Positions 25,001 through 64,000 of a DNA stretch of 64,000 bases are shown here, piece by piece. The DNA is from Haliotis rufescens (taxonomy: Eukaryota). The DNA lies in assembly GCF_023055435.1 (NCBI RefSeq), contig NW_025963957.1, forward strand, positions 7,502,001 to 7,566,000, in the 5' to 3' direction. Position numbers and translations under genes: made by a program. Under the pieces are notes generated by a model. It had not been told where the DNA came from. It made no database searches and was given only the letters and a program-made list of their open reading frames with translations. Position 1 is the stretch's first letter; every line of letters begins with the position of its first letter.

Positions 25001-26562
25001 TGACATACATCAATCTAATTAGCGACCCTGACACCCGATCCCGTTAGCAGAGCAACAATGTGTGGAGTTGGGACACGATGACATACATCAATCAAGTTAG
25101 CGACCCTGACACCCGACCCCGTTAGCAGAGCAACAATGTGTGGAGTTGGGACACGATGACATACATCAATCTAATTAGCGACCCTGACACCCGATCCCGT
25201 TAGCAGAGCAACAATGTGTGGAGTTGGGACACGATGACATACATCAATCAAGTTAGCGACCCTGACACCCGACCCCGTTAGAAGAACAACAATGTGTGGA
25301 GTTGGGACACGATGACATACATCAGTCTAATTAGCGACCCTGACACCCGATCCCGTTAGCAGAGCAACAATGTGTGGAGTTGGGACACGATGACATACAT
25401 CAATCAAGTTAGCGACCCTGACACCCGACCCCGTTAGCAGAGCAACAATGTGTGGAGTTGGGACACGATGACATACATCAATCTAATTAGCGACCCTGAC
25501 ACCCGATCCCGTTAGCAGAGCAACAATGTGTGGAGTTGGGACACGATGACATACATCAATCAAGTTAGCGACCCTGACACCCGACCCCGTTAGAAGAACA
25601 ACAATGTGTGGAGTTGGGACACGATGACATACATCAATCAAGTTAGCGACCCTGACACCCGACCCCGTTAGAAGAACAACAATGGGTGGAGTTTGGACAC
25701 GATGACATACATCAATCAAGTTAGCGACCCTGACACCCGACCCCGTTAGCAGAGCAACAATGTGTGGAGTTGGGACACGATGACATACATCAATCTAATT
25801 AGCGACCCTGACACCCGATCCCGTTAGCAGAGCAACAATGTGTGGAGTTGGTACACGATGACATACATCAATCAAGTTAGCGACCCTGACACCCGACCCC
25901 GTTAGAAGAACAACAATGGGTGGAGTTTGGACACGATGACATACATCAATCAAGTTAGCGACCCTGACACCCGACCCCGTTAGCAGAGCAACAATGTGTG
26001 GAGTTGGGACACGATGACATACATCAATCAAGTTAGCGACCCTGACACCCGATCCCGTTAGCAGAGCAACAATGTGTGGAGTTGGGACACGATGACATAC
26101 ATCAATCAAGTTAGCGACCCTGACACCCGACCCCGTTAGCAGAGCAACAATGTGTGGAGTTGGGACACGATGACATACATCAATCAAGTTAGCGACCCTG
26201 ACACCCGATCCCGTTAGCAGAGCAACAATGTGTGGAGTTGGGACACGATGACATACATCAATCAAGTTAGCGACCCTGACACCCGACCCCGTTAGCAGAG
26301 CAACAATGTGTGGAGTTGGGACACGATGACATACATCAATCAAGTTAGCGACCCTGACACCCGACCCCGTTAGCAGAGCAACAATGTGTGGAGTTGGGAC
26401 ACGATGACATACATCAATCAAGTAAGCGACCCTGACACCCGACCCCGTTAGCAGAGCAACAATGTGTGGAGTTGGGACACGATGACATACATCAATCAAG
26501 TTAGCGACCCTGACACCCGACCCCGTTAGCAGAGCAACAATGTGTGGAGTTGGGACACGATG
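22008..26562. repeat. 78-bp satellite array (~58 copies) derived from an internal segment of SINE family 1
   Basis: Period 78 (identical line starts every 780 bp). The unit aligns to 18393-18470, and the flank 21890-22007 is the rest of the SINE. Confidence 0.97.
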
Positions 26563-26762
26563 ATATATCCTTGTTTGGGCATATGTAGGTGTCAGGTACA
26601 GATGTGAGTTTGATATATCTTTCTTTGGGCATATGTAGGTGTAAGGTACAGATGTGAGTTTGATATATCCTTGTTTGGGCATATGTAGGTTTCAGGTACA
26701 GATGTGAGTTTGATATCTCTCTGTGCATATGTAGGTGTCAGGTACAGATGTGAGTTTGATAT
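26563..26762. repeat. 50-bp minisatellite (4 copies) sharing the core tgtaggtgtcaggtacagat with the 43-bp array
   Basis: Direct tandem copies. Confidence 0.9.
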
Positions 26763-31660: not shown

Positions 31661-32683
31661 TTTATCATATAATGGTTAGGTTTCTCGGCAGGATAAAGCC
31701 AACGGATAAAAACGATATCCGTTGGGGTCATATGCGGATAGAGATGCAAATATCAAAGGTCATGTAGGGATTACTTTCACTGTTTATAAACAAACATGGC
31801 GTCGCCCTCGTCAATCGGCGATCGAGTCAGAATTACCCATCGGGAATGTGGATAAACTACAGAGATAATTGCTTTCATTATCAAAAGAACAGTCTAATAT
31901 ACTGAAAATCAGTGTCTAACTGTGACGTAGCTAAGGCATTTTATAAGTTTTGGCAACTTTGGAGATATAAATTTCGACACAATTTTGCGAGGGCACGAGG
32001 CCTAGCCAAGCGGGATCAGTAGCCATATCTGTGCTTGTAGACCTCTGCGGCTTGAACCTTTCTCCACAATTTAAAATAGTTGGATTTTGCCGAAATATGT
32101 TTTAATTGTTACATTGTTTCGTTTTGTCGCTGTGTGTACATCTGACTACACTTCTTAACGTTATGACAGGACAGACCGACTGTCAACAACGTCCGACCGT
32201 GGCCGCGACGTCTCATAGACTAGGGTTAGAGTAGCTTCCCTTTGACAAAGGGCAGTTACTCAAGCAGACAGACCGATGGATTTCCGCGAAAGGCAATTAA
32301 GAACAATTGTTGTTTTGCGTATATGTTGCTTCGCCACTGTATAAGAAAGAGATTTCAGTTGGAACTATATTGGCTACTGTCACTGTCCAACTGTCACATC
32401 CCTTACCCTGTGACGTAATAAATATTAATGCGCGCATTCCAGGAAAACTCGCAATGTTTCGGTATTGTTTGTGAGAGAGGGAAAGCGATTTTGAAGCAAA
32501 GAATTAAAGAATGACATTATATGATAAAGAGGTTATCACGCTTGTGTGTTTGGGGATGGTAAATATCTTGTATTAGGAATAAACAGTATGTATTTAGCTC
32601 GCCAAGGCTCGCTAAATACAATGTTTATTCCTAATGCAGGATATTTACCATCCCCAAACACACTCGCGTGATAACCTCTTTAT
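31661..32683 (-). mobile_element. Family A hairpin/subTIR element, intact hairpin
   Basis: Reverse complement of 7663-8603. About 160-bp palindrome at 32524-32683, subTIR tttatcatataatg / cattatatgataaa. Confidence 0.88.
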
Positions 32684-32725
32684 ATTGCGTGGAGAATATT
32701 ATATTTCTGTAATCAGTTGAAATAC

Positions 32726-39370: not shown

Positions 39371-41446
39371 GCCATCAAGTCCAGAGACTCTCTTCATTTT
39401 CAAAAAGTGCAGAAGTCTAGACTTGCTCACCGGACTGGATGTATATAGTGGATATATGTGTTTCCTTGTTGAGGGGGATATAACTTACACTTGGACGAGA
39501 CCCCGGGGCATCCAGAGGCAGGCACACACATTCGTGGCCTCAGTTGATTGAAAGCTCGTGTTGTAAGGTTTACACATTTTCACCTCAGGTTACAACACCT
39601 GCCTTCTTGACCCCACGTATTATTTGTTTGTCTTTGAGTGATTTTCTTTTGACTCGACGCCATGCTATATATTTCCCAGACTAAAAAATCGATAAATGAA
39701 ATAATAGCGACAAAAACAAAGGTCTGTTGTGCGATTCCGTTCAAGCACTAAAACGTAATGACAGTCACGTATGACTTAATCCTAGCTGTCAAATCTGTTG
39801 TTTTTCAAGTTGATACATTTGCGCTGATAAGTCCGCGTGGGACGGACGACTGACAGCACGTCAGTTCATATTTCGACTTAATACATAAAGATTCGGGGTG
39901 ACGAAACCCGCAACACTTCATGACAAGGGGGATGAAGTCAGTCAACTGTGTGTAAATCTATTGATTATCAAGATTATGAATGGATGACTTTAGCCATCCA
40001 ATAGTAAATAATTGTGAAACAACCAATCATCGTTCACAAACTTAACCTGAATTAAAGAAGCAAGTGACACCGCCTCGTCTGTTTTATATTTAGATATGTG
40101 CATACCACATTCAGAGTCTCAATAACGTGCCCAGAAGAGTATGAGAAGAGGGATAACTTCAACTTTCCAAAATTCAAGTTGTCCTTCCTGTCGAGCAATA
40201 TTCCAGCAGCTCCAGCCTACGATGTCATGTCACGAGGTTTGAGGTACAAACTAAGACCATCATGCGGCTCTTGCTCAAAGGTTGTTTGATCAGGGTTACA
40301 CAATTTATAACTTCGTTTTACCAGTGAGCTAACATTGTTCCCACGTAAAGTGTAGGCCTGTTCAGCACTAATGTGTAGTTTCAACAATTTATAACTTTGT
40401 TTTACCAGTGAGCTAACATTGTTCCCACATAAAGTGTAGGCCTGTTCAGCATTAATGTGTAGTTTCCACAAGAAGTACATAAAAACTGTAAAAGCGAAGG
40501 CAGGGCGGGACAACTTAGGAATGGCCAGGAGTCCGAACTTGACCACACAGAAGGAAGCGAGCTACAAAAACATGTTTTATATCACTGGAAAGCTCTCGAG
40601 GAGACGAATCCAAATAATGTGTGTCCCAGTGTGTTCACATGTTCATAAGCTCAAAAATTGGCTGAGAAAATGCATTACTGCAGAAATTTCTGGCAGAATT
40701 TTTTTTTTCTGCAGAAATTTCTGGCAGTATTTTTTTTTTCTACAGAAATTTCTGGCCGAATTTTTTTTTTTCTACAGAAATTTCTGGCAGAAATTTTTTC
40801 TGCAGTAATATTTAGCAGAATTATTTTAATTCAGGAGAAATAAGATTCAATCATTGGATAGTTTAACCTGGAGTTGGTTCAAATGACCTTTTTCCTCAAA
40901 ACAAACATTTTTAGTTGACATGATTACAAGCAATAAAATAAAACTAATTTCGTGAGATATTTCAAAAAATTATTTATTCACATGCTATATTACAAGACAA
41001 TTCCTTGGGAGACTTTGCACTTTTCATTCTCATGAATGAGTCGTATTTTCTTGGGTGAGGTGATTTTTTCAGAGATGAGTCCTGTCACAAAAGAAAAGAT
41101 GTATAGATGAGTGGATCCATATTGACTAATATAATGGATACTGGCAGCCTATACGCAGCTAGAGTTTAACTTTACAATAGAGCCTGTGGAATAAAATGTA
41201 TTATGAATGTAAATAGTGTGCTTTACTTACGTTTTCTTCTCAACATACTTGAAATGAATTCTTTTTTTCGTCTGGTCATTGAAAGCTATGTGCACATATT
41301 CTGAAAAGATATGAAAAAAACATTAAAATGCTTTTCATTTCAGTAATTAACACATTCCACAAGCTTTAGACACATGAACAAAGTAAGATAGGTGAGTTGA
41401 AATTAGGTTGAATGTCGCGTCCAAGATAATTGCACTTATATAGCGA

Positions 41447-41448
41447 TG

Positions 41449-41480
<32 letters not shown>

Positions 41481-41519
41481 TGTGTGCGTGCATGTGTGTA
41501 TGTGTGTGTGTGTGCGTGC
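41447..41519. repeat. (TGCG)n/(TG)n microsatellite
   Basis: Directly visible. Confidence 0.95.
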
Positions 41520-42337
41520 TTGTACTAGTCGTCTGCATCTTCCGTTTTGTACAGGTCACTCCATAAGTTGTCAGTGACTGCATATTTGTGTAGGGGGCAC
41601 TCAATGTTGACACTGTCATGAAGCTGAAATTATATAAGGATGAGTATACTGCGAAAATTACATTGAATTAATTCGTTAAAAGAGACTTATGTATCATGTT
41701 TGGGAGAGGCATTCAGATAAGCAAAATTTGCTTGTTTGCCAATCCCTCCACTTTTGGAAATAAATATGTTTATATCAAGAGACTTCTAAACCATAACCGA
41801 ACTCAAAACTAACCCCATGTGTCGTAAATGGGTGCTCTAAGGTAAAAGGATGGTAAACACGTGTTTCATTGGCAAGGGATACTCAACCCTTATGATCGGA
41901 AAGGGGGTCCAAGGACAAAGGAGAGACCAGACCTACTACCCACAGGAGCCAGCCTGGTATAAGACTTAGTGTAAAGCTAGCCTAGTCTATGTCATCAGCA
42001 GCTGGTCAATGCGGCGGAATGTGGTTTTGGCGTTGCTGTTCAAGTTCGAATTTCCGATAGGCCTGTCTCCACTAAAAAAAAATAGATAAATTTTCGGACA
42101 GCATAATCTGGTGTCAGATCTTAAAAAAGTTCCGAACGACTGTGAAACCATGGTAAGAAGTATTATTATTATTGAAGCAACCTTCCCAAATGTGTGTGCT
42201 GCATAAGCTGGAGTGGTTCCCCTTGATTTTTTTCAGAATATGAATCGACAGACGAAACGAAAATTAGTTCGCTTGACATATCCAGTTGGGGGTTATTCTT
42301 TTTTAGTTTGGTGGAAAAATGATATGAAACACTGGGG

Positions 42338-43300
42338 TCTGACTGACTGATATAGGAGATTTAACGTGCGCTTTCCGACTGTAGCGTATTTAGCACACGG
42401 GCCTGGCCGGACCATTTATTGTATTCCGAAAAGGGTGAAAGTGATGTGTGCAACCCAAGCGGGGGCTTTTAGGGGTTGCTTATGTTGAAGTTTTGGAATT
42501 TTTAAATTTGGAATAAATGCCGAGGTGGGTGGAGGAGGGAACTAAGGGAGTCGGGTGAGGTGGGTGTTTGTATGTTTATTGGATTTTGGATTGGTAGATT
42601 AATTAGTTTTTAGATGCGCTTAATTAGGTCTGTTTTGATTAGGAATACGCCTAGGGCCTTAAAGTTTTCTAGTTTATTTTGAGGGTTTAGTATTTCATCT
42701 AGAATAGGAACCTTATTTAGATTGAGGGTGGTTTGTAGTGTGGTTCTGTGTGTTTGATAGTGGGTGCAGTGGATGGGTGCGTGTTCTGTGGTTTCAGATT
42801 GTTTGCAGTGGGGGCAGTTGCCTGTAGTGTGTCTTTTAAGTTTTTTTAGGTGGTTATTTAGGTTCGTGTGTCCTGTTTGGAGTTTTGTAATGAATCTGTC
42901 AATTTTTTTAGAGGGGTGTAGGATTTTAGGTTTGGCTAGTGGTTTTCTGAGCACTTTTTTGATTTGGCTATTTGAGTTTTGATATTGATTATGCCATTTT
43001 TTGGTTATTTTTTGTTTGTTTACACTTTTAATTTCTGATTTTGAGATGGGTAGGTTTAGGCTTATTACTGGTATTTTGAGAGATAATTTAGCTGCTTTAT
43101 CGGCGCTTTCGTTGCCGTAAATTCCTACGTGGGCGGGGGTCCACAAGAAGGTTATTTGTTTGCCTGCTTTTGTTAGGTCGTCGGAGCTTTTAAGTATTTG
43201 GTTCATTAATTTAGGTCGTTTTTTGGTATTTTTGTTTTGGAGGGCTTTTATTCCACTAAGGGAGTCGGTGAGAATTAGGATTTTATTGTTGTTTTTAGAT
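42338..43300 (-). mobile_element. 5'-truncated I-group (Nimb/I-like) LINE: RNase H, Cys/His knuckle and 3' UTR
   Basis: ILTDSLS..ITFLWTPAHVGIYGNESADKAAK..LQTGH..CPHC..ETTEH..HC in ORF 42610-43383. The tail ends gcgcacgttaaatc..(TCAG)3. Confidence 0.88.
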
Positions 43301-43403
43301 TGGGGCTGCCCAAGGACTAAATATATCATACAATTATTGAAATACCCGTATACATTCTGATTGTCGAGTGACCCTGTGAACAACCAACACCCTCCTCCCC
43401 CCC

Positions 43404-43434
<31 letters not shown>

Positions 43435-45687
43435 AGTAGCACGCTTACGGTTTTCAATATATACGATAACATACTACTTAGATGCGAACAGTTTAATTGA
43501 CAGCTGTTAATTGGTAACGGTCAAGCCTCAGTGAATTTGCATTGGGGGTGTGTGTGTGAGGGGGCGTCTGAAATAAAGGTGGATTCAGTCGGAATAAAGA
43601 TAAGATAATGATCTCATAAATTTTATTGAAGGCTTTGAAAGTTTAGGATCGGCGAGACCGTAACACAGAGTAATTAACAAAACGATCACGTGATCGTGGC
43701 GCTGATAGACAATACCCACCGACCACGTGCGCGAGACAATGTACCACCGTATGAAGTGACAATACCCGAGGATATTTAATTGCCAAGTTGGCAGGAAGTC
43801 TGGCGGCACGGCACGTACAATATGCGTCGTTTGGGTATTCTTAATTGTCTCAGCACCAGCTTTGATGGGGCATTAAGAGAAGATGATATATATGTTTATT
43901 TTAGGAAAACATTAATACAACAATTTGTTATATTAATTAACATTGGGACTATAAAGTTAGTTTTATCTAAATATTTCTAACGTTATAAATAATAGAAAAC
44001 TCGCATGTAAATTATCAAAATACTGCATGGATTGGTATTTTGTAATTTTCCGTGTTTTCACTTTCACTGATCACCACAGGCAAATTCATGGTCACATAGC
44101 TACACTACAAGTGTCGCCATACAGCTACAATAAGTTGCCTAATGTCCTTGAGACAGTATACAAGTCGCAATAACACCACAGGGGATGGAGATATCTCCTT
44201 TTCAGATTAGTTTGTTTGCGTATTTTTTTATCAAAAGTGGTAGAAATAAATACACTAAAATTAGACACTTACAAAACGCGTTTCGCATGGCAGCAGAGCC
44301 ACACATTCACTGTTTGGAGTACAGGTTGTTATTTGGTTGTTGTTATATGAAATAACCGTGTTACCAAAATTCCACGTTCTAGGGTCGGCGTTTCCAGAAA
44401 TAAAACAATAAATATTTTGACGTCTTACCTGTATCGTAATTGCAAGACGGTAACCAGACGCTGTAACTCTGCTGACTGCACGTGGTTCGGGATCTTTGCT
44501 GTGGCTGAAATAAAGAGTGCTATTTTTTACAGAAAGAGACCACGTTGCTTGTGCCATTGTGCAAAGACATTGTGCGAAGGCACGATTCTGAATATACACG
44601 AATATATACAAGTCACATGACAAAGAAGGTATTTACATGAAAGATATTTTAAATCTCGATGTTAGAGACCTTGAGAAATGTAGATTTAACTGAATCCAAT
44701 CCGATTTAGGGTTACTATCATTCATTACAAATGGATAATACGATATTGCATTATAGAGAGGGTAATTATAGCTACCTGAAGGAGCAACCATATGTCCACT
44801 CTTTGAAGTTGCCGCCAAACCGGACGCGTAATTGAAACTCGCAAGAACACTGTGTACACAGCTTCTTTCTAAATTTGGAGAAGCGTAAGTGTGGTGAAAG
44901 AACAATATGAATGTAAGTCAGGCATGAAGTTGCACGGAGGAACCAACGTGAGACTTTATAATCACATGGTTGTTCATATATGTTATTTAATGCGTGATAG
45001 GTATTACCGCTTAAAAGGTGGTTTTGTATTTATAATAAAAACTGATCGTTTACATTGTCTGGGTAGCAACATAACTGTTGCATAGGGTATGTTGTTTAAT
45101 GATAATACTATATGAAAATTCCTCGAGCCAGCTGACTTACACTATGGATAGTGTACAAGACAACAGTTATAGAACATCACGTGATAAGGTTGATGGAAAC
45201 GGCAAAATATTTATTTACAATATATGTGTTTCCAGGGGAAGAGCCTGTTACAAAATATGTGTCTAAAAAAAAGTAAACTCGCTCCTTGTCGGACAAAACT
45301 GAATGTAATTAAGTTAACTACCTATGTACATTATCAGTGGAGTACTTGAATTAATATCAAATTGTAACCCGAGATGCTGGTGCCACACCTTATTACGTGA
45401 CCACCCAGTGAGGCGTGAACACTCAAGGGGGCATGATATACACCCTTGTGTTTGATTTGATATACCAATCAGCCGTGGACGCCCGACCATAAAAATGGTA
45501 TATATAGATTTAACCCTAATCAGGTATCGTTAAATATCGTTAAATCGTCGAGAACGTTCTGTCAGACGATCAAACGATAACTATTCAACAAGTCGGTAAA
45601 TCACATCGAAAACCCAAGTTCTGGTCGCAGTGAGAAGCTCTAGATGCCTTGAGGAGGGTTCACCAGCTCTGCTTCAACAACGTTGAC

Positions 45688-48600
45688 ATGGGTAAGAAGC
45701 ATTTTATTCTATTTTTGTACACCAAACACCGTATATATCTTGAAGAACCTTTGCCTTCTGTTTGGATCATGGTTTCTTTATGAACATATTCACTGAACAT
45801 GTTGCTACGCTATTACAGATCTTACCAACGTGATCAACAGTCAAGGCAGACATCTTTCTTCAAGAAATCTGCCCAAAAGGAAAAACACTGAAATTGGTAA
45901 GTAATGTTCATGTGCAATGTCGTCAACTATAGTTCGTTTATTGCATCGGCACTATTAGGTAGAGTTGAGCTACGAACGCGAAAATAAACTGGTACGGCGA
46001 ATGTAGGGGTGAGGTACTCCATCGGTCTTGCGTTGCGCTGGGTTTTTTTACCACCACCGACTGTGTTGCCAATTTAAATTTCGTTTCGGAATCAAAGCAC
46101 GGTGCATTTTTTTTTTTTTATCAAAATGTCAACATGAGCTAGGAAAGGAAGAGCGAGGGCTCTGCGAACATACGCGGATTGTGTAGCCTTTATTTATATA
46201 TGGCTTCGCGTGGCATTATATTGGTGTTACGTACGTAGAATACCAGGTAAGTGTTGCTCTCGTTGCCCACAGGGCCATGACTTAATTAGGGTGCGAGTTG
46301 GTGGGTGGCTCGGTCTACTCGGTGGTGCTAACAGTAGGCGTAGGGCTAGGCAAGTTTACGAGACATACTCTCGCGTGGACCTAGTGATAGAACCCTTTCT
46401 TCGTTTTGAGAGGACATGTCGATATCGAATTTCGCGAATTTTCTTCTCGAATTTCTGAAAGCCCAGGAATATTGCAAAATCTATATTAATAATTGCTGTT
46501 TCCAACTGGATACATATAAAAGCGATCTTCAAAATGGAACCGAATTTAGCATGGAAACAATATTCGATAAACGTAAGGGTTTGGCAAGGAGTATTACTGT
46601 TAAGACCTTGAATAACTTATCGATACCAACTGTATACATACACTACCAGGCATTGCAATTGGGCATTTATTGTTGGTTTGAATCCCTGTTCGCCCAATGT
46701 TTCTAGGTTGTCGGCACCATATCTGTGCTCGTGGGCTTAATCGAAGTGGTAAACGTCAGAGATCTGCATCACTTTGGACTTTCCTCCCACAATAAGCTGA
46801 CACGCCACGATATAACGGGAATACTGTTAAAAGCGGTGTTAAACCAAACACAATCATTCAAGACTCACAACTTTACCGTTGATCCAATGTTTTCTGGTGC
46901 GTGTGGGGCTTTGTTAGTGATGAGTCACAACTGTATATTTTAGGTTTCCCAAACATGCTTCAAACATTTTTATTCTAAAATGATATGTCATATTATCACA
47001 GGAGCAGTAATCATAACATACAAATAAGTTGACAGCATTGATTGCTTATTCCTATGTAATAAGAACGTGAAGTGGCCCACACAAGCAGGTGTGTCACGTC
47101 TGTTAACAGGTGAATGGGTTGTCTGATATGGTCTTGTATGATAACACAGTATCACATGCTGAAAGTAATTAGTACTATTGCACATACACAGTATCAATGA
47201 ATGTATTTCTTTGAACTATTGTTTCATTATTACTACAAAGCACACATTTGCTATCTGCATAATAAACCTAACTTATTTCTCATCAATTTACAAACAAGTT
47301 AAACATTATTAATTTTCATTGAAATAACTTGTTGATACAATAAGGCAAAACCTTCAAATACGTATATGAATAGATTCAATTCTCTATGCACAAGCCAACA
47401 GTTGAATGTTGTGATTACGAAAGGTTGGGAGTGTCAGATCATATGTACCTGGTAACTCTTTTTGGGACAAAGTGTCTAAAACATAATTTAGTATTTATTC
47501 ATATTCAAGGCATCTATTCTCAAATCTCACATATTATCATCTTTGGTACATACTTTTTCAACCAAAATTTTGTGAAACAGGAATAATCTTGTGAAAATAA
47601 TAACATGTCTTTGCTCCCTGAGGTAACAAGGTTATCAAAAACATTGACAAGAATCATTCATCACCAGTCAGAATGTGGATAAGCATTAAGGAACTTTGAC
47701 GAATCATTCGTTCATATAATCGCGAAATCGTCATTACAAAGCACATCAGTAACAGAATTCCGTTGCATAAATTGTAGTTGTAATAAAGATAGGATCATGT
47801 TTTTAGAGTTTGGCATAAGAAAAAGACTATGAATAAACATAGTCTGATGTTTGTCAGGTCATTCATACTGTTCAGTGTATTCATATTATTGTTTCACAAG
47901 GGGTTTGTCAGCTAGGTTAAATGTAAGTTTAGATAAGCGGACAAAAATTCATGTTCATGACTGTCCTTTAGTGTAAAATGCTTTTAAAAGTCTATTAAAG
48001 TCTTGTCACTAACATTGATTTCAGATGTAGAATACGACTTATCTTGACGTGCCTATTTTAAAGTTTTATGATAATAAGAATTTTAAATGGAAGAAATTCG
48101 GTAGTCATTGTTAGGGTTATGTAAACTAGATAAATATCTAAATAGATAATTGTCACTCTTGAGTTAAATCTGACAATGATTAACATAACATTCTATTATA
48201 CAATTTTTTTTTTTTTATGGAAGCATGTGTACAATGTATGAAAGACAAAGTTGATATTCACCAAAAGTTTTTTCAGTAGTGAAATCTTGAGACAAATCAA
48301 CAATTATTCTTTTTCACAAGCAGTGCTATAAAAGAGATGATTAATTGATGTTTTATTAAGTTTTTGGATAACCATTAACATTTCAAGAAATCTTTAATCT
48401 TAAGTTGCCCCTGCACATCCTTAATGTTTGTCTGCACTGTTTGCTGATCCCTACAAGATACTTACATTATATTAATGGCAGATTGCCTTCCAAATATGAT
48501 GTTTTTATTGGTAATTCATGTTTTATATAAATATACACATTATAACTTATTTCTACTTATGTCATAAAAAAACAATAACTGCTGACATTGGTTTAGGGAA

Positions 48601-51600
48601 AATGAATGTAATTTAATAGCCAACTGGATACTTTTTACATTATTATTTTAATTGCCCATTCAAGCAAAAAAACAAACCCACCCACTTGCGATTTTTATGT
48701 CAATTGTTTCATCTTCAATATCAATTAAAAATATACACTTGGAAATAAAAAAGATGGTATAATTACATCAGCTTGGAATAATTACGTGAGATAATACTGT
48801 TTTAATATCTCTAAGGTTTAATTTTTTTATATACAGCAACATGCGAGCGTGACTGTAACATTGATGCAATTATAGGATCTATAGGATCTATAGGCTACAT
48901 GTATCTGAGAGAACTTGATTAATCTTGACAAATGTTGTATGATTTATTCATCATTCTTGTTGTGAATTTCAACCAGTTCCGAACACTACATCTGTGGCAC
49001 TGACAATATGGCCCAAAACCATACAGTTTATGTTAAGTGCGCAAGACATTGTCACAATACTTAATGATAGATTGTCATTTTGAAAAAAACATGACACTGA
49101 TCTTATTGCATCACAGTTTTGTGAAATGTTTGTTTATGAATGTTTTTTGTATTGCATTATCAAAATGTTTAAAAATCAAGTTTTCATTAAAACATGACAT
49201 TTTCAGTATTACATGACATTTTCAGACTAACTAGTGTCTATAGACTTGTAATTTATATCATTCTCATGTTACTGTCACTCTATCTAACTATAACTAGTGT
49301 CTGTAGACTTGTAATTCATATCATTCTCATGTTACTGTCTCTCTATCTAACTCTATTAATACCTATATATATGCTACCAATTTTATTCAGTATTTAATCA
49401 GGAGATAAAAATACTGTGTTTTCAATGTTTCACTTGGTAACCTGTAAACTGCACTGAATTGAATTTGGAAACGAAAACAGAGAATGAGGTTTCAAATCTT
49501 AAATTAAGCTTGGATAAATCTACAGGTAACCATGCTCCACGTTAAAAACATGTTGTGTTTATGCTTGTTGTAAGAGGCGACTGACAGGATTGGGTGGTCA
49601 GGCTTATTGACATGGTTGACACTTGTCACCATATCCCAAATCATAGATTGATGTTCATGATGTCAATCACTTTATTGTCTGGTCCAGACTTCTGTACAGA
49701 CCACCGTCATATAGCTGAAATATTGTTGGAGTGCGGTGTTAAACAAAAAAGTGAACAAACAAACAAAATCACCGACAGTGGTGCTGTATATGCTTAAACA
49801 GTTTGTTTACACATAGGTCAGGCATTGAAAGCATGTAGCACAAAAACCACCATGAAGTGGGCACCCCAAAAGAAAACTAAGCTAGCCACTAGGATGACAT
49901 ATCACTCACTGTGACACAAAAGATATGACGTAACAGTCCTAAAATGAAAAGTGCCAATGTCAAGCTCTCTGTTGTCCTCAAAACTTGAAAATCATTCTCT
50001 CTGTAGATTTTTTATGGTTTTCTGCACAAAATGTATTGCCACACATCCTTTCAATATTGTAGTGAAACTTTGCATGTTGTATCCTATAAATGTAAATATT
50101 TTAAAATGCTTATTGACAATGACTGTAAAAAAGTACTACTTTATAAAATATTAGTTTCCAAATCAGCCTTTTTAATAAGAGGGGGATTATTGTGATTTCA
50201 TAACCTGATTGTCCAATCAGAATCAAGTTATTTCCATCAAGTATTTGTGGGAAATCAACTCATCAAAAATGGAATTGGAATTGACTGCCACTTAGCCGTC
50301 TTAGATTTAGAACAAATCTACTCCAAAACTTCAAGAGTGTTGATGCCATAACAACAATATTGATAATGCTATTTATGGCCATTACTTCTGAAGTCATTTT
50401 TGTTTGAAAGGTGATACATGTGCAGTAATTTTAGTGCTCTTGTTAAATTACACATTTTAACTTGACCTCATCACATCCAGCTTTCGAAAAGATGAAACTT
50501 CTTTTGGACATTACTGAGCCATGTTTGTACAATATGTAATGAAATCCAGTAGAGATTGTAATGGGGATCATCACAGATTCTGTTTTCGTAATGTTTTATA
50601 TTTTGACCATTACATGCCCTTAATTTGCACTCTCTCAAAATGCAATTCTTTGCACAATACAAGCAATCTTCTCAAGATACCACTGGACAATGAAACTTTA
50701 CCTGATTGACAACCCCAATTTCTTGAATTGGATATTTGCCACCCATAACTCGGTTATTGCTCAAAATAATGAAATTTGGTTAGTTGGTAGTGGGACTCAA
50801 CACTTGTTCCTTTTCGCATTATAATGACATAATAATTCTTCCAATATTAAGGGTGTTTTTCACTTCTTACTCCCGCGGTTTATATTCTTTAGTGCAGAGT
50901 TTTGTCCCTGGATGTGTTCGGTTCATGGTTCAGCAACATACACATGCTCATGGGTTTGACCAGTGGTAAATGTCTAAGACCTACATAACTCTGGGCTTTC
51001 CTCCCACATCAAGTTGACACGCCGTGATATACCTGAAATACTGTTCAAAGCAGCGTCTAACCTAACTCACTCACTCATTCCAGGTGAGCGGGTGTTCATG
51101 TGCCACAGTGAATAAAAGAAACCATAATTATTATAAGGAAGTATGTTGCACAAAGTTATTTAATTAAATGTTACATCCAGTTTCATAGTAAGTCAATTTG
51201 TCCATATGTCTCAGTAACTGATGGCAACCAATGAAACAACACTTTCAGTACAAAAGTTCCCCCAAAGTACTAGTTACATGTGCCATAAGCCAAAATTAGC
51301 TGCCCGCTGTGGCTCAGTGTATACTCCTGAATGGAATTTGCTAATATTAGCCATATATATGACATGCATAGTTCTCACAATAGGTCTCCAGCAATCCATG
51401 CTTGCCATAAGAGGCGACCATGCTTGTTGTAAGAGGCGACTAACGAGATCAGATGGTCAGACTTGCTGACTTGCTTGATGTGTGTCATCGTATCCCAATT
51501 GCGTAACCTGATGCTCATGATATCAGTCACTGGATGGACTGGTCCAAACTCAAATATTTACAGAATGCTGTCATATAGCTGGAATATAGTTATAGAAACA

Positions 51601-53480
51601 AGCAAATAAACACAACAATGAGTTCACTGCTGCGTCCTAGCAACAGTATTTTTAGAAACTGCTCATTTGTAAGCCTGTTCTGATTGAATAGATGAATTTT
51701 GGCAAAACACACAGCCATTTCTGTCCGTATAATTGTTTTTTTTTATGTGCATGCATGTTCAGTTTGTCCATGTATTACTGCATTATGGATGTTGTGTCGA
51801 AACCTTCAGTGCTTTCTTCTTTACCCTCGAGTGGTTGTGTAGCCCAGTGGTGAAAGTGTTCGCTCATCACGCCAAAGACCTGGTTTTGATTCTCCACATG
51901 GGCACAGTGTGTGAAGCCCTTTTTATTTGTTGCATTTCATGTCAAAACAGAAAACGACTTCCATGTTACGAAAAAAATGTATGCCATGAAGACCAAAATT
52001 TTTAGAATCTGTCTTATACCCACTCATAAATGCTGTTCATTTAATAACTGCTTTAATAAAACTACTTAAGTTCATTCTGGAAGATCTAGAACGATGGAAT
52101 ATGCCTTGTATCTTTACATGAAAAAAAAAGTTTCTGCAAAGAATAATTATAAGATTTAATGGGTCATTATTGTGTAATTGGTATCCAAGCACAACATGTC
52201 TTTTTGTGATATTTCCTTTCCAGTTTCCAGTGAATTCTATGCTTGTCTTAAGAGGCGACTAACAGTATCGCGTGGTCACTTGCATTGATGCTCATGATAT
52301 GAATCTCTGAAATGTCTGGTCCAGATTCGATTAATTACAGACCGCTGTCATATAGGTGGAATATTGCTGAATGCGGCAGTAAACAACAAACCAAACCAAA
52401 ACATATATTACTGTCTACATATCCTCTTGGTAGGGAGTTATGTAGATTCTTATTTAGAAACCAGTGGAGCTTAGTATCCACAGTGCACATATATGGGTTA
52501 CGTTATTGTAGTTAGTCCAGTATTATTAGTAAAGGATGTAATGGGATTTGTTTTGTAATAGGATCGTGCCATGTATGTCAAGACATTTGTTTGTACATTA
52601 TATTTGTAACACACGTTTAGAAGGATAGAAATTTATCTTTGTCTTAGCTAAATGCTTGGTACGGGCCTGTTGAATAAATTCAATGTTTGTCTGGTAGGCT
52701 TGTCTAATTTTGGAGGAATTGTGGATATCTGAGAATGGAAATTGGCAATTGTTATATTTGTATGACTATCCAATTACATTAAAGTTGCAATTTATGTATT
52801 GTTCAAATATTTATTTGACATTTCCAGGACCAGTAAAGCTGCAAGATTTTGTCGGCCAGTCAAAAGTGGACGCTGCAATCCAAGGTATCACTTTTAGTGC
52901 TATCATGAAGATAGTTATCAATGAAATTATTGGTATATGATTCCACATACAATATCATGTATAGCGTATTTATTCCTTGAGGCTATACTATACAATTCAA
53001 AGTAAATGCTGAAGTCACATGTGGTTAATATTTTTATAATTTATGTAAATTGTTTTAAACCACATTAGAATTGTTTTGAAGCAAGTATTTTATGTCCAGT
53101 TGCTCATCCTAAGTATAAAAGAATCTGCACACTATGTTGAAACTTTTTAAATGCACAAGATTGATTTTTCTCTCAATATTCTCAATACTCAAATCAGTAT
53201 TCTGTAAATAAACAAGTTTTGTACAATTTGATTTGTTTTCATAGTGATAATACTGATGTAAATACTATTTTCAGGTGAAACTTTCTTTCTCATGGTGGGG
53301 CACACGCATGAAGATGTGGATCAACCGTTTAGTGTATTTGCAAGGGAACTTAGACAGAAGCCTGCAACAACCCGCGATGCCCTCCTTCAAGATTGGGGAC
53401 ATCCGGACACCCACCACCAAGCTATCAGACTTAAAGCCCTTCATGCCTGCCCCAAGGGAAGCGACAACCCTCCCAACTAA
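45688..53480 (+). pseudogene. Spliced remnant of the element's transposase (candidate exons 45688-45691, 45819-45896, 52828-52884, 53275-53480/53532, 53739-)
   Basis: Canonical GT-AG boundaries. The first four exons join in phase 1 to a 114-aa ORF containing FLMVGHTHEDVDQPFS; most of a DDD domain is missing. Confidence 0.55.
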
Positions 53481-55317
53481 AGTTCAAGAGGCAATAGAGA
53501 AGAACAATGAAAAACTGCAAAAACAATCAAAGGTAATTTCAATAAATATTGCATTTCTTTTGAAATATGTATTGTGATGTGTAATATTAGGGTTAGTCAG
53601 CGTTACTTAGGATATGTGTAATGTGGGCAGAGAAACAACCCAACTTCATGAGGTTACTATTTTTGCTTTTATTGTATAGATGCACTGTGATTTTAATTAT
53701 GTTCTCATATTCTTTACATTTTCTTTCTTTACTTTCAGATCACTCTGACAAAGCACCGAAGACAAGCGTTAGTATCAGAACAATAAAGAAGGAGCAGCAA
53801 GTTTTGCTGAAATGAACATATTTTTTGTCTAAGCTATGTGGCTGAGATATTGCCGAGGATTGCATTGCAGGAGTTTTGTAATGTGTATGTTTTTGTTTCT
53901 TAGTAAAGCTGTGTATTTAGAATTATATATATATATATACATATAAAAGATGAGATGAGATGTGCACAATGAAATTTATGAAACAATATATGCAGTTATA
54001 TTGTAAAATCTTGGTTGTGTTCTATTTTTTTCCATGTCTGAAGTTAACCTACTTTCAGAGTACCGTATATCACATGTAGGTTGTTTCTTTGAATTCCAAC
54101 TGGGGATTATATATTTGGTTGGCCCCATGGAATAATTATGAAATTTATTTTTTGAGAATCACATTCACCTTTACTGTTGTACACTTCAAAGTCGTAAAAA
54201 GGCCATTGAAAAATGGTCACTGAAATTCTCATAATAATTTAGATTAAATATAGGGTAAGCTCAAGGTTCAATGATTTGCATCTGTCTAGTATACAAAGGT
54301 ATGAGGCCAACATGTTGTTCCATTGTTTAATTCGAGTGACGTCAACTTTTCTTGATAAATTTGGTAAATATAATACCAAGATAAATATCTTCAATTGCTG
54401 AAATCAATTTAAACTCTCCAAAGATTGATGGTTGATATTACTGCAGAAAAAAATTCTGCCAGAAATTTCTGTAGAAAAAAAAAATTCTGCCAGAAATTTC
54501 TGTAAAAAAAAAAAATACTGCCAGAAATTTCTGCAGAAAAAAAAAATTCTGCCAGAAATTTCTGCAGTAATGCATTTTCTCAGCCAATTTTTGAGCTTGT
54601 GAACATGTGAACACACTGGGACACACATTATTTGGATTCGACTCCTCGAGAGCTTTCCAATGATATAAAACATGTTTTTGTAGCTCGCTTCCTTCTGTGT
54701 GGTCAAGTTCGGACTCCTGGCCATTCCTAAGTTGTCCCGCCCTGCCTTAGCGTAAAGAACACATTTTGCACGAGGTCCGAGTCTATATAGTCAGTGTAGT
54801 ATGGGGCTGCTCAATCGTCAAGGCAACACCCTTTGCTGTGCGTCCCTTTCGCATAACAGAAACCCACCACCATGGGCTCATCGCCACGACATCTGCAACT
54901 TTAATAACCGATCTACTGATGAAGATATCCATTTGTGTTCTCATGATGGTCACAAGCAAGAGCATTTGTAACCAGAACAAGTGTTTTGTTTAGACATTTG
55001 CTAAACAGTTGTTGCCACACAACATCAAATCAGAGGATATTCTAATTACGATTGATTGACGTTTATTCTGAATCGGGGACGCTAAGACACGGGTACACAA
55101 CGTGAGACTTCCCTTCTGTTTCCGGAACAGCAAAATGTTTTAATCGGAACTCGGTCAGTCAGGATGAATTTGCATCGTAACTTTCCTGTTAGGCCAGATT
55201 TAGTTGAATTCCCACAGAACAATTCCAATTTTGCGTGCTTTCGGCTTACTCAAAATATCGCTTTCTGTCTAAATCGTCATGATTAGTCCAGAAAAGGAGT
55301 GTCGTCTATTCGTGTTA

Positions 55318-57195
55318 CATGGCCAAACAGAGGATACATCACATCGTATACTCGTGATACACGGACACACAGAGGATACATCACATCGTATACTCGTGAT
55401 ACACGGACACACAGAGGGTACATCACATCATATTCTCGTGATACACGGACATACAGAGGATACATCACATCGTATACTCGTGATACCCGGACACACATAG
55501 GATACATCACATCGTATACTCGTGATACACGGACACACAGAGGATACATCACATCGTATACTCGGGGTACATGGCCACACAGAGGATACATCACTGTGTA
55601 TACTCGTGATACACGGACACACAGAGGATACATCACATCGAATACTCGTGATACACGGACACACAGAGGATACATCACATCGTATACTCGTGATACACGG
55701 ACACACAGAGGATACATCACATCGTATACTCGTGATACACGGACACACAGAGGATACATCACATCGTATACTCGTGGTACATGGCCACACAGAGGATACA
55801 TCACTCTGTATACTCGTGATACACGGACACACAGAGGATACATCACATCGTATACTCGGGGTACATGGCCACACAGAAGATACATCACATCGTATACTCG
55901 TGATACACGGACACACAGAGGATACATCACATCGTATACTCGTGGTACATGGCCACACAGAGGATATATCACATCGTATACTCGTGGTACATGGCCACAC
56001 AGAGGATACATCACTCTGTATACTCGTGATACACGGACATACAGAAGGTACGTCACATCGTATACTCGTGATACACGGACATACCGAAGGTACGTCACAT
56101 CGTATACTCGTGATACACGGACACACAGAGGATACATCACATCGTATACTCGTGATACACGGACACACAGAGGATACATCACATCGTATACTCGGGGTAC
56201 ATGGCCACACAGAGGATACATCACATCGTATACTCGTGATACACGGACATACAGAAGGTACGTCACATCGTATACTCGTGATACACGGACATACAGAAGG
56301 TACGTCACATCGTATACTCGTGATACACGGACACACAGAAGATACATCACATCGTATACTCGTGATACACGGCCACACAGAGGATACATCACATCGTATA
56401 CTCGTGGTACATGGCCACACAGAGGATACATCACATCGTATACTCGTGATACACGGACATACAGAAGGTACGTCACATCGTATACTCGTGATACACGGAC
56501 ACACAGAAGATACATCACATCGTATACTCGTGATACACGGACACACAGAGGATATATCACATCGTATACTCGTGGTACATGGCCACACAGAGGATACATC
56601 ACATCGTATACTCGTGATACACGGACATACAGAAGGTACGTCACATCGTATACTCGGATTACATGGCCACACGAAGGGTACATCATATTCTATCCTCGGG
56701 GTACACAAACACACAGAGGGTACACCACCTCGTATACTCGGGGTACACGGACACACGAAGGGCACATCACATCGTATACTCGGATTACATGGCCACACGA
56801 AGGGTACATCACATCGTATACTCGGGGTACACGGCCACACGGAGGGTACATCACATCGTATACTCAGGATACATGGCCACACAGAGGATATACTACATCG
56901 GATACTCGGGGTACACGAACACACATAAGGTAGGTACATCACATCGTATACTCGGGGTACACAAACACACAGAGGGTACATCACATCGTACAGTCGGGAC
57001 ACGAAGACACACAGAGGGTACATCACATCGTTTACTCGGATTACATGACACCAGGAAGGGTACATCACATCGTATATATGGGGTACACGGCCCCACGGAG
57101 GGTACATCACATCTCATACTCGGATTACATGGCCACAAGAAGGGTACATCACATCGTATACTCGGGGTACACGGTCACACCGACGGTACATCACG
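55318..57195. repeat. 42-bp minisatellite (acacacagaggatacatcacatcgtatactcgtgatacacgg)n
   Basis: About 44 copies, diverging at the right end. Open in several frames on both strands. Confidence 0.96.
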
Positions 57196-57509
57196 TTGTG
57201 TAGTCAAACCAGTTCTTTGACAAGAACCCATCCTCGACAGCGTCGGACAGATCCTGAAGCCGGGACGGAGCTGTCCTTCTATGATGTCAGCGCTGGGGAA
57301 CCTCCAACCTGTTTTGATCGGACTCATTCCTTAAAATATCCTGGCCAAAGTACTAATATCGAGGTAGGATACTCTTTCCCGCCTCAGCTTTCACAAATAT
57401 GTATTTAATGATTCAACAAGTGCACAAGATGTGTAAATGTTCATCTTAGGCCTCCACTGTTACACCAAAACTGTACTCAAGGTAGATTTGGTAAATGATA
57501 TGAGTGCAG

Positions 57510-60045: not shown

Positions 60046-60916
60046 TACTGGGATGTTGTCTGTGGTGTGACCTGGCTCTTGTACTGGGATGTTGTCTGTA
60101 GTGTGACCTGGCTCTTGTACTGGGATGTTGTCTGTAGTGTGACCTGGCTCTTGTACTGGGATGTTGTCTGTAGTGTGACCTGGCTCTTGTACTGGGATGT
60201 TGTCTGTAGTGTGACCTGGCTCTTGTACTGGGATGTTGTCTGTAGTGTGACCTGGCTCTTGTACTGGGATGTTGTCTGTAGTGTGACCTGGCTCTTGTAC
60301 TGGGATGTTGTCTGTAGTGTGACCTGGCTCTTGTACTGGGATGTTGTCTGTACTGTGACCTGGCTCTTGTACTGGGATGTTGTCTGTAGTGTGACCTGGC
60401 TCTTGTACTGGGATGTTGTCTGTAGTGTGACCTGGCTCTTGTACTGGGATGTTGTCTGTAGTGTGACCTGGCTCTTGTACTGGGATGTTGTCTGTAGTGT
60501 GACCTGGCTCTTGTACTGGGATGTTGTCTGTAGTGTGACCTGGCTCTTGTACTGGGATGTTGTCTGTAGTGTGACCTGGCTCTTGTACTGGGATGTTGTC
60601 TGTAGTGTGACCTGGCTCTTGTACTGGGATGTTGTCTGTAGTGTGACCTGGCTCTTGTACTGGGATGTTGTCTGTAGTGTGACCTGGCTCTTGTACTGGG
60701 ATGTTGTCTGTAGTGTGACCTGGCTCTTGTACTGGGATGTTGTCTGTGGTGTGACCTGGCTCTTGTACTGGGATGTTGTCTGTAGTGTGACCTGGCTCTT
60801 GTACTGGGATGTTGTCTGTAGTGTGACCTGGCTCTTGTACTGGGATGTTGTCTGTAGTGTGACCTGGCTCTTGTACTGGGATGTTGTCTGTAGTGTGACC
60901 TGGCTCTTGTACTGGG
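60046..60916. repeat. 36-bp minisatellite (tactgggatgttgtctgtagtgtgacctggctcttg) x24
   Basis: Near-perfect tandem copies. Confidence 0.97.
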
Positions 60917-61520
60917 CTGAAGGGAAACAAACTCCCTAGAGGCTGTAGCTCGACATTGACAGATGATGACAGTTTGGTTGATTTCTTCTAAAGAAATATT
61001 AATATGATTTATTTCCGTCCCTGGCAGAGTACGAATGGTCGTCACTTTTGATAGTTTTTAATGTGCTGTGGAATGATTGACATCAGATTGAATTAACTGA
61101 GAATGAATAGTGGACTCGACTGTGTGAATGTATAGGGATGCATCAGTGGAGATTATCAACGTCCAATTGATGGCTGGACAAATAATTGTCTACATATGTA
61201 ATATGTAAGTGGCTAGACGTATTACAACGTGTTCTGATTGGTCGGTATGACGTTGAATGTGGAAATGCTGCCTGTTATGATTCTACACCTACAAAGAGGT
61301 GTGGCAGATGTTGTAGACTTCAGATCAGACGCGGCATGTTAGTGGTATTCGTGAGTGTACGTTGCTATGAATGTGTCCATGGCTCGTGTAGGTATTGTGT
61401 ATCAATAGCCCTGGCTCCTTTACGTGTTATGTTCAGCGTCATTTCTCAACGGGTGCCACCAGTAAGAAGGATACGCTCACCGCCTAGACTTCCAGTTGTC
61501 GGGCTTTCGTTTTTTGTGGA

Positions 61521-62254: not shown

Positions 62255-64000
62255 TGACACAAGGACACTTACATTGTTGACACAGGGACACTTACATTGT
62301 TGACACAAGGACACTTACATTGTTGACACAGGGACACTTACATTGTTGACACAGGGACACTTACATTGTTGACACAAGGACACTTACATTGTTGACACAA
62401 GGACACTTACATTGTTGACACAAGGATACTTACATTGTTGACACAAGGACACTTACATTGTTGACACAGGGACACTTACATTGTTGACACAAGGACACTT
62501 ACATTGTTGACACAGGGACACTTATATTGTTGACACAAGGACACTTACATTGTTGACACAGGGACACTTACATTGTTGACACAGGGACACTTACATTGTT
62601 GACACAAGGACACTTACATTGTTGACACAGGGACACTTACATTGTTGACACAGGGACACTGACATTGTTGACACAAGGACACTTACATTGTTGACACAGG
62701 GACACTTACATTGTTGACACAGGGACACTTACATTGTTGACACAAGGACACTTACATTGTTGACAGAGGGACACTTACATTGTTGACACAGGGACACTTA
62801 CATTGTTGACACAAGGACACTTACATTGTTGACACAAGGACACTTACATTGTTGACACAGGGACACTTACATTGTTGACACAAGGACACTTACATTGTTG
62901 ACACAGGGACACTTACATTGTTGACACAGGGACACTTACATTGTTGACACAAGGACACTTACATTGTTGACAAAGGGACACTTACATTGTTGACAAAGAG
63001 ACACTTACATTGTTGACACAAGGACACTAACATTGTTGACACAGGAGCAGATACATTGTTGACACAGGGACACTTACATTGTTGACACAGGGACTCTTAC
63101 ATTGTTGACACAAGGACACTAACATTGTTGACACAGGAGCAGATACATTGTTGACACAGGGACACTTACATTGTTGACACAGGGACTCTTACATTGTTGA
63201 CACAGGGACACTCACATTGTTGACACAGGGACACTTACATTGTTGACACAAGGACACTTACATTGTTGACACAGGGACTCTTACATTGTTGACACAGGGA
63301 CACTTACATTGTTGACACAGGAGCAGATACATTGTTGACACAAGGACACTTACATTGTTGACACAGGGACACTTACATTGTTGACACAGGGACTCTTACA
63401 TTGTTGACAGAGGGACACTTACATTGTTGACACAGGGACACTTACATTGTTGACACAAGGACACTTACATTGTTGACACAGGGACTCTTACATTGTTGAC
63501 ACAGGGACACTTACATTGTTGACACAGGAGCAGATACATTGTTGACACAGGGACACTTACATTGTTGACGCAGGGACACTTACATTGTTGACACAGGGAC
63601 ACTTACATTGTTGACACAAGGACACTTACATTGTTGACACAGGGACACTTACATTGTTGACACAGGGACACTTACATTGTTGACACAGGAGCAGATACAT
63701 TGTTGACACAAGGACACTTACATTGTTGACACAGGGACACTTACATTGTTGACACAGGGACACTTACATTGTTGACACAGGGACACTTACATTGTTGACA
63801 CAGGGACACTTACATTGTTGACACAGGGACACTTACATTGTTGACACAGGGACACTTACATTGTTGACACAAGGACACTTACATTGTTGACACAGGGACA
63901 CTTACATTGTTGACACAGGAGCAGATACATTGTTGACACAGGGACACTTACATTGTTGACACATGGACATTTACATTGTTGACACAGGGACACTTATATT
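62255..64000. repeat. 23-bp minisatellite (gacacagggacacttacattgtt)n running off the window
   Basis: About 75 copies. Confidence 0.97.

What the first reader, a model, noticed from the sequence alone, without database searches (positions are those of the whole stretch)
40497..54748. Giant 14.25-kb TIR transposon with young ends and an old, cargo-filled interior
Seen: ~314-bp TIRs differ by only a handful of substitutions and poly-T lengths and carry four cagaaatttctggc subrepeats. A perfect AGCG TSD flanks the element. The interior holds decayed SINEs, a LINE fragment, microsatellites and a broken transposase. Known: Sola elements have 4-bp TSDs, can have long TIRs, and have a GH..D motif at the last catalytic Asp. 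Inference: a non-autonomous element moved recently as a unit, carrying other repeats as passengers. AAGG termini with a GC-rich TSD do not match the termini I recall for the Sola subgroups, so this may be a distinct lineage.
Basis: partly seen in the sequence, partly recalled or inferred. Interest (0 to 1): 0.7.

Follow-up and report, generated by a model that had tools for sequence, protein, structure and literature searches.

The report
Giant intron-bloated Sola-like transposon derivative
This 14-kb stretch is one crippled copy of a family of unusually large (8-25 kb) jumping DNA elements, likely in an abalone; it lost the core of its own transposase gene and was likely moved whole, old repeats included, by the enzyme of a fuller relative that is still spliced into RNA-like contigs.

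Summary
The element is real: 40497-54748, 315/314-bp inverted ends (6 mismatches, 1 gap), AGCG duplication. It is one of at least 29 two-ended copies (7.8-25.3 kb) in its genome; 22 of 29 have their own perfect 4-bp duplication, and nested SINE/LINE pieces sit at the same junctions in siblings, so it moved as a unit. The ends are not younger than the interior (arms differ by 1.9%, the interior differs from siblings by mostly 1.2-2.8%, and the three arm mismatches checked are inherited). The family's target is AT-rich (GC 25/88), not GC-rich. New anatomy: about 58% of the element is likely the transposase gene itself, with most SINEs inside a predicted 6.9-kb intron; exons 4-11 are deleted. A 25.3-kb relative holds a 13-exon, 669-codon DDD transposase model (DUF7869); exons 4-13 are joined at GT-AG sites in contigs of two probable RNA runs. 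It works like a Sola element and is not Sola2. It is Sola3-like by recalled motif, but lacks the TTAA target recalled for Sola3 (0 of 22). Giant Sola elements with fixed nested repeats are already described in Ectocarpus. Verdict: new variant of a known kind, moderate interest.

The parts
40493..40496 (.). left target-site duplication AGCG
40497..40811 (+). left terminal inverted repeat, begins AAGG; four 31-bp-period subrepeats at 40681-40788
42339..43400 (-). nested LINE 3' fragment (RNase H), shortened and inverted relative to the 25-kb copy; same junctions in 7 of 9 siblings tested
43400..46600 (.). CpG-retaining region (o/e about 0.8-1.2); inferred unmethylated promoter and 5' end of the transposase gene
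45590..45691 (+). predicted transposase exon 1, ATG at 45688; the start at about 45590 is inferred; about 90% conserved in an old copy whose neighbouring blocks are 75-85%
45819..45896 (+). predicted exon 2 (AG..GT, in frame)
45897..52827 (+). predicted intron 2, 6931 bp, CpG-depleted from 47 kb on; holds SINE-like pieces at 46669-46875, 49559-49773, 50930-51080, 51377-51612, 51833-51923, 52237-52410
52828..52884 (+). predicted exon 3 (AG..GT, in frame)
52966..52971 (.). junction of a 4.7-kb deletion that removed exons 4-11 (first two catalytic Asp and the Cys-rich N-terminal region)
53275..53532 (+). remnant of exon 12 with GHTHEDVD (third catalytic Asp); 1-bp deletion near its start and 362-bp deletion at about 53389
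53739..53790 (+). last coding exon (13)
54435..54748 (-). right terminal inverted repeat, ends CCTT; four subrepeats at 54458-54564
54749..54752 (.). right target-site duplication AGCG

Best explanation
This is an internally deleted, non-autonomous copy of a large Sola-like cut-and-paste DNA transposon, likely moved in trans by the DDD transposase of a fuller relative. Shown: inverted ends, 4-bp duplications at many different sites, colinear siblings with shared nested repeats, loss of exons 4-11, and a relative whose exons 4-13 are joined at GT-AG sites in contigs. Inferred: the element is large mainly because its transposase gene is built like a host gene. It has 13 exons and a CpG-rich 5' region, and its long introns absorbed SINEs and LINEs without losing the reading frame. 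Inferred: gap repair with template switching after excision made the derivative series (14-17 kb, 9-10 kb, 8.3-8.6 kb), with deletions, small inversions and right ends lengthened by copying the left end. The transposase would bind the subterminal 14-bp repeats, cut at AAGG ends and insert with a 4-base stagger and only a mild AT preference.
For: 127 end candidates, 40 scored. 29 of 42 regions examined had both ends; 22 of 29 perfect 4-bp TSD, 1 with one mismatch, 6 none. The three longer siblings C24b, C445a and C112a share the junctions of 8, 7 and 8 of 8 nested pieces. The 25,262-bp copy C26:122951-148212 (TSD CTAG) gives a 669-codon model, all 12 introns GT-AG, with one 1-nt break and D337/D421/D461. 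These Asp positions are invariant or at least 90% conserved in 61 relatives. A relative's model (pLDDT 83) has TnsB and IstA as top fold hits, then Mos1 and foamy-virus integrase (weak, best E 5e-4). Laid contigs: 9 GT-AG joints across exons 4-13 in X17, 8 of the 9 in X15, and all four runs read one extra base at the break. TIR length is 219-434 bp by subfamily, with the extra right-end sequence matching the left end.
Against: Exons 1-3 were not seen joined to exon 4. They rest on splice sites, phase, conservation and 235 unplaced upstream bases in the X17 contig, of which exons 2+3 explain 135. The runs are only guessed to be RNA. No intact transposase was found in this assembly (lower bound). 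6 of 29 copies lack a TSD. The Sola label rests on recalled motifs plus the 4-bp TSD; no curated Sola1/Sola3 sequence could be compared. Mobility today is not shown.
Confidence: 0.85

Rival explanations
1. Exons 1-3 and the 41-52 kb interior are a captured host gene fragment (Pack-MULE-like), and the transposase gene proper begins at exon 4.
For: The X15 contig begins just upstream of exon 4 inside my intron 3, so a second start there is possible. The joint from exon 3 to exon 4 was not seen. Two diverged interior homologues (C2, C312, about 75%) showed no ends or transposase in the 20-30 kb fetched.
Against: Exons 1-4 join in one open frame with GT-AG sites. X17 continues 235 nt upstream of exon 4. 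The old C90 copy keeps the exon-1 region at about 90% next to transposase exons and an end. CpG depletion runs from 47 kb through the 3' exons. All of the 28 strongest matches of the 44.7-46.0 kb interior that I fetched sat in family copies.
Confidence: 0.12
2. The transposase belongs to an undescribed superfamily-level lineage rather than Sola.
For: No TTAA targets (0 of 22) and AAG rather than the GAG ends I recall for Sola3; motifs differ from Sola2 and from intronless FD(L/Y)-type elements in this genome.
Against: A 4-bp TSD plus a DDD triad ending in GH...D is the Sola pattern (recalled). DUF7869 also hits the intronless type weakly. The family is huge and widespread (12,799 representatives; molluscs, lancelets, urchins, corals, liverwort), so it is unlikely to have been missed.
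Confidence: 0.08
3. Two independent short inverted-repeat elements happen to flank ordinary repeat-rich DNA, or the copies arose by segmental duplication.
For: Some ends had no partner within the stretch fetched (13 of 42 regions).
Against: Colinear interiors end sharply at the termini, with different flanks and each copy's own TSD.
Confidence: 0.01

Closest known systems
Sola3 group of the Sola superfamily (Bao et al. 2009; paper not held, features recalled)
   Same: DDD triad with D..DQ / Q.DN / GHTHED motifs (recalled as Sola3), multi-exon gene, long TIRs of several hundred bp, 4-bp TSD.
   Different: No TTAA target (0 of 22); ends AAG (GAG only at the left end of C26); size 8-25 kb; variable TIR length.
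Giant Sola1-1_Ec32 (21.5 kb) and giant KDZ/EnSpm of Ectocarpus (PMC12477816, passages read)
   Same: More than 10 kb, nested unrelated TEs fixed among copies, transposase often broken, movement in trans implied.
   Different: Brown alga; Sola1; carries a ParB-methyltransferase accessory gene. No accessory gene was found here; size comes from predicted introns and 5' region.
Sola2 (alignment in PMC3627910 supplement S10, part 1 of 2 read; passages)
   Same: 4-bp AT-rich TSD; GH...D before the last Asp.
   Different: Sola2 has DFAENY / SDG / TSHGKSPCD motifs; the amoebozoan families described there have 12-21-bp TIRs.
Ds-like / P-element-like deletion derivatives and Pack-MULEs (established knowledge; PMC6431247 section 5 read)
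   Same: Non-autonomous series with intact ends, moved in trans.
   Different: Much larger than Pack-MULEs (1-7 kb per that review); no host coding fragment identified.

Membership tests
Sola superfamily | 4-bp target-site duplication | tested here: met
   22 of 29 two-ended copies
Sola superfamily | DDD transposase with RNase H-like fold | tested here: met
   D337/D421/D461, conserved; fold hits TnsB, IstA, Mos1, integrase, weak E-values, on a relative's model
Sola superfamily | terminal inverted repeats | tested here: met
   219-434 bp
Sola superfamily | sequence similarity or tree placement with curated Sola transposases | not testable with these tools
   Defining papers not held; supplements searched gave no Sola1/Sola3 sequence, some files unread
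Sola3 | TTAA target site (recalled) | tested here: not met
   0 of 22 TSDs
Sola3 | GAG...CTC termini (recalled) | tested here: not met
   AAGG left end in 27 of 29 copies, GAGG in one, AATG in one; right end CCTT in 27 of 29
Sola3 | long TIRs and intron-rich transposase gene (recalled) | tested here: met
Sola3 | GHTHED-type catalytic motifs (recalled) | tested here: inconclusive
   Motif present; its link to Sola3 is from memory only
Sola2 | DFAENY / SDG / TSHGKSPCD catalytic motifs | tested here: not met
Sola1 | FD(L/Y) / SD.C..QN motifs and AWWT-type target (recalled) | tested here: not met
   Elements of that motif type exist separately in this genome and score far lower on DUF7869 (40 versus 235-253 bits); AWWT in 3 of 22 TSDs

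The most novel reading that the evidence does not exclude
A Sola3-derived lineage that has shed TTAA specificity and is still active in abalones. Its transposase moves 15-25-kb units naturally, and it grew giant by behaving like a host gene whose introns soak up other repeats. Spliced transcripts from its many deletion derivatives outnumber the transposase mRNA and act as the brake.
Probability: 0.3. Interest if true: 0.6.

Novelty: new variant of a known kind. Interest (0 to 1): 0.36.

Why it matters
Natural cut-and-paste elements are usually a few kb, and efficiency is reported to fall above about 6 kb (PMC6431247). Here 9-17-kb units copied repeatedly in an animal. The spliced helper gives a named, testable transposase for a poorly studied superfamily, with large natural cargo and loose target choice. 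It also ties Pfam DUF7869 to a TIR/TSD-bounded element, and shows that such elements redistribute old SINE/LINE copies, which confounds repeat dating and gene annotation.

Tried and rejected
Empty allele: no match in this assembly (0 hits with 1 mismatch). In one search one X1 contig begins on the window at 54749 with 156 other letters before it, and one X12 contig at 54753 with 194. This fits an empty site, but the letters were not shown, so it stays open. No listed run was on record as RNA, so 'RNA' is a guess. Dating by TIR mismatch was rejected. A nested-insertion origin for the 5.7 kb missing from the 9-kb class was rejected: it is ancestral, and the 9-kb class has an inverted internal piece in its place. 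Accessory gene: two candidate ORFs gave no Pfam hit above cut-off, and a conserved block at 44.7-45.0 kb has no shared open frame of note. First structure model was unusable (pLDDT 50). PDB sequence search was uninformative (its top hit, NIPBL, matches only the profile's tail). ESM Atlas returned DUF7869 clusters and unnamed ones, one with a minor ISAZ013 share. Literature: 10 searches found no description of this family and no use of DUF7869 among the 20 of 61 papers listed; subscription papers and Repbase are not covered. Three look-ups of earlier findings were empty.

Full report
OBSERVATION. The element runs from 40497 to 54748 (14,252 bp) between two AGCG copies. Its arms align over 315/314 bp with 6 mismatches and 1 gap, each with four 14-bp subrepeats. 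The interior holds a LINE RNase H fragment and a DUF7869 remnant with GHTHEDVD, six SINE-like high-copy pieces at mean 78-82% identity to copies elsewhere and simple repeats. The best protein relative is from Haliotis asinina at 72%, so the host is probably an abalone (inference).

FAMILY. The end sequence gave 127 candidates in the 1.33-Gb genome, 40 scored. Of 42 regions examined, 29 had both ends and 13 had one within the stretch fetched. Lengths are 7.8-25.3 kb; 22 of 29 have a perfect 4-bp duplication, 1 has one mismatch, 6 have none. The TSDs are AT-rich (25 GC of 88; window GC 40%), none is TTAA and 3 are AWWT. All but one old copy are colinear with a 25,262-bp copy on C26. Three longer siblings share the junctions of 7-8 of 8 nested pieces, while C26 shares both junctions for only one. 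So most nested pieces were gained or rearranged on the derivative lineage before it multiplied, then carried along.

AGE. The window copy differs from siblings by mostly 1.2-2.8% across four interior segments and from C26 by 3-6% in the main blocks. The arms differ by 1.9%. The three arm mismatches within the first 190 bp are family-wide left/right differences, and some copies have homogenised arms. There is therefore no young-end/old-interior contrast; the nested repeats are old because they entered early. The copy's own branch is about 0.6% (tree). An empty allele was not shown; two contigs are compatible with one.

TRANSPOSASE. C26 is the only near-complete copy found. A 13-exon model gives 669 codons, GT-AG at all 12 introns, and one 1-nt break. 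Laid contigs of two probable RNA runs (X17 organism B, X15 organism A) show 9 and 8 GT-AG joints across exons 4-13, and all four runs laid read one extra base at the break. An open helper transcript therefore likely exists, and the break is private to this copy or an assembly error. The catalytic Asp positions are at least 90% conserved in 61 relatives. A confident model of a relative resembles TnsB, IstA, Mos1 and foamy-virus integrase, with weak E-values. The window copy lacks exons 4-11 (4.7 kb) and 362 bp of exon 12. The 362-bp deletion is in 25 of 29 copies and the 4.7-kb junction was matched in 24.

WHY IT IS BIG. Three small upstream exons (ATG 45688; 45819-45896; 52828-52884) join exon 4 in frame. 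The X17 contig has 235 bases upstream of exon 4 that lay outside the stretch laid; exons 2+3 account for 135. The exon-1 region is about 90% conserved in the old C90 copy against 75-85% for neighbouring blocks. CpG is retained at 43.4-46.6 kb and depleted from 47 to 54.5 kb, as expected for an unmethylated promoter and a methylated gene body in invertebrates (established knowledge). On this reading 58% of the element is transposase gene and all six SINE-like pieces lie in a 6.9-kb intron. The joint of exons 1-3 to exon 4 is inferred, not seen.

DYNAMICS. TIR length varies by subfamily (about 314, 368, 433 bp), the added right-end sequence being a copy of the left end. The 9-kb class replaced 5.7 kb with an inverted internal piece. 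These fit template switching during gap repair (inference). Contig depth is a poor copy measure (tool caveat), but the contrast is large. In X1 the transposase core is at 8-9 against flank 10-12, and the 362-bp deletion joint at 318. In X12 the core is at about 570-620 against flank 34-37, and that joint is not listed. This suggests a recent burst of full-transposase copies in organism B. In X15 the deletion joint has depth 58 against 6-8 for the full exon chain.

COMPARISON. It works like a Sola element. It is not Sola2 (motifs). It differs from intronless FD(L/Y)-type elements in the same genome, which I recall as Sola1. The motifs, introns and long TIRs match my recollection of Sola3, but TTAA and GAG ends are not met, so I do not file it as Sola3. 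The defining papers were not held. Unread supplements (PMC3985635 file 1 and the cut part of file 2; PMC10294476 files 13-33; closed bioRxiv files) may hold curated Sola sequences or a mollusc relative. Papers seen: passages of PMC5751038, PMC4455052, PMC3627910 (plus supplements S5 and S10 part 1), PMC10294476, PMC5199201, PMC3985635, PMC5753468, bioRxiv 2021.09.26.461848 and PMC12477816; passages and section 5 of PMC6431247. PMC10294476 gives a mean of 5.4 kb for curated mollusc Sola1. PMC12477816 already reports giant Sola1/KDZ/EnSpm with fixed nested TEs and trans-mobilisation.

VERDICT. A real, well-supported giant non-autonomous transposon; the general phenomenon is known. What is new is this family, its intron-based route to size, relaxed targeting and a spliced helper. 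Interest 0.36.

Noticed in passing
window 45688-53480: A 1-bp deletion at the start of exon 12 puts a predicted exon 3 to exon 12 splice in frame, giving a 114-aa mini-ORF in this copy and three others; it is cut to 67 aa in the 9.2-kb class, so probably chance.
   Followed up: partly
G000 C31:553515 (L137), C583:59.85 Mb, C268, C576: Intronless Sola1-type transposase ORFs, one open for 799 aa, with weak DUF7869 hits.
   Followed up: partly
G000 C556:35.132-35.137 Mb, C68:25.787 Mb: More distant intron-containing relatives of this transposase; their ends were not found.
   Followed up: partly
G000 C90:30.10-30.17 Mb; C1:57289063-57296883: Old copies at about 72-90% identity; C1 keeps AAGG ends and an ATCC duplication, so the end sequence is old.
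   Followed up: partly
L069 core region, run X12: Transposase core about 17 times flank depth at about 99% identity in organism B against about 1 time in X1: possible recent burst of the helper.
   Followed up: no
window 44618-45010: Block up to 89% conserved in an old copy with splice-like motifs but no shared long ORF; possible regulatory or non-coding exon.
   Followed up: partly
window 7657-8602 and 31662-32686: About 880-bp inverted pair at 93% identity, 23 kb apart; probably two copies of another repeat.
   Followed up: no
window 22008-26567, 55302-57205, 60046-60919, 62255-64000: Long minisatellite arrays (78-bp unit at 97-98% identity and others); 84-bp tandem duplication at 40300-40471 just left of the insertion.
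   Followed up: no
P0014-P0016, P0019: Lancelet relatives of this transposase carry an extra PF02902 (Ulp1-type peptidase, name recalled) domain.
   Followed up: no
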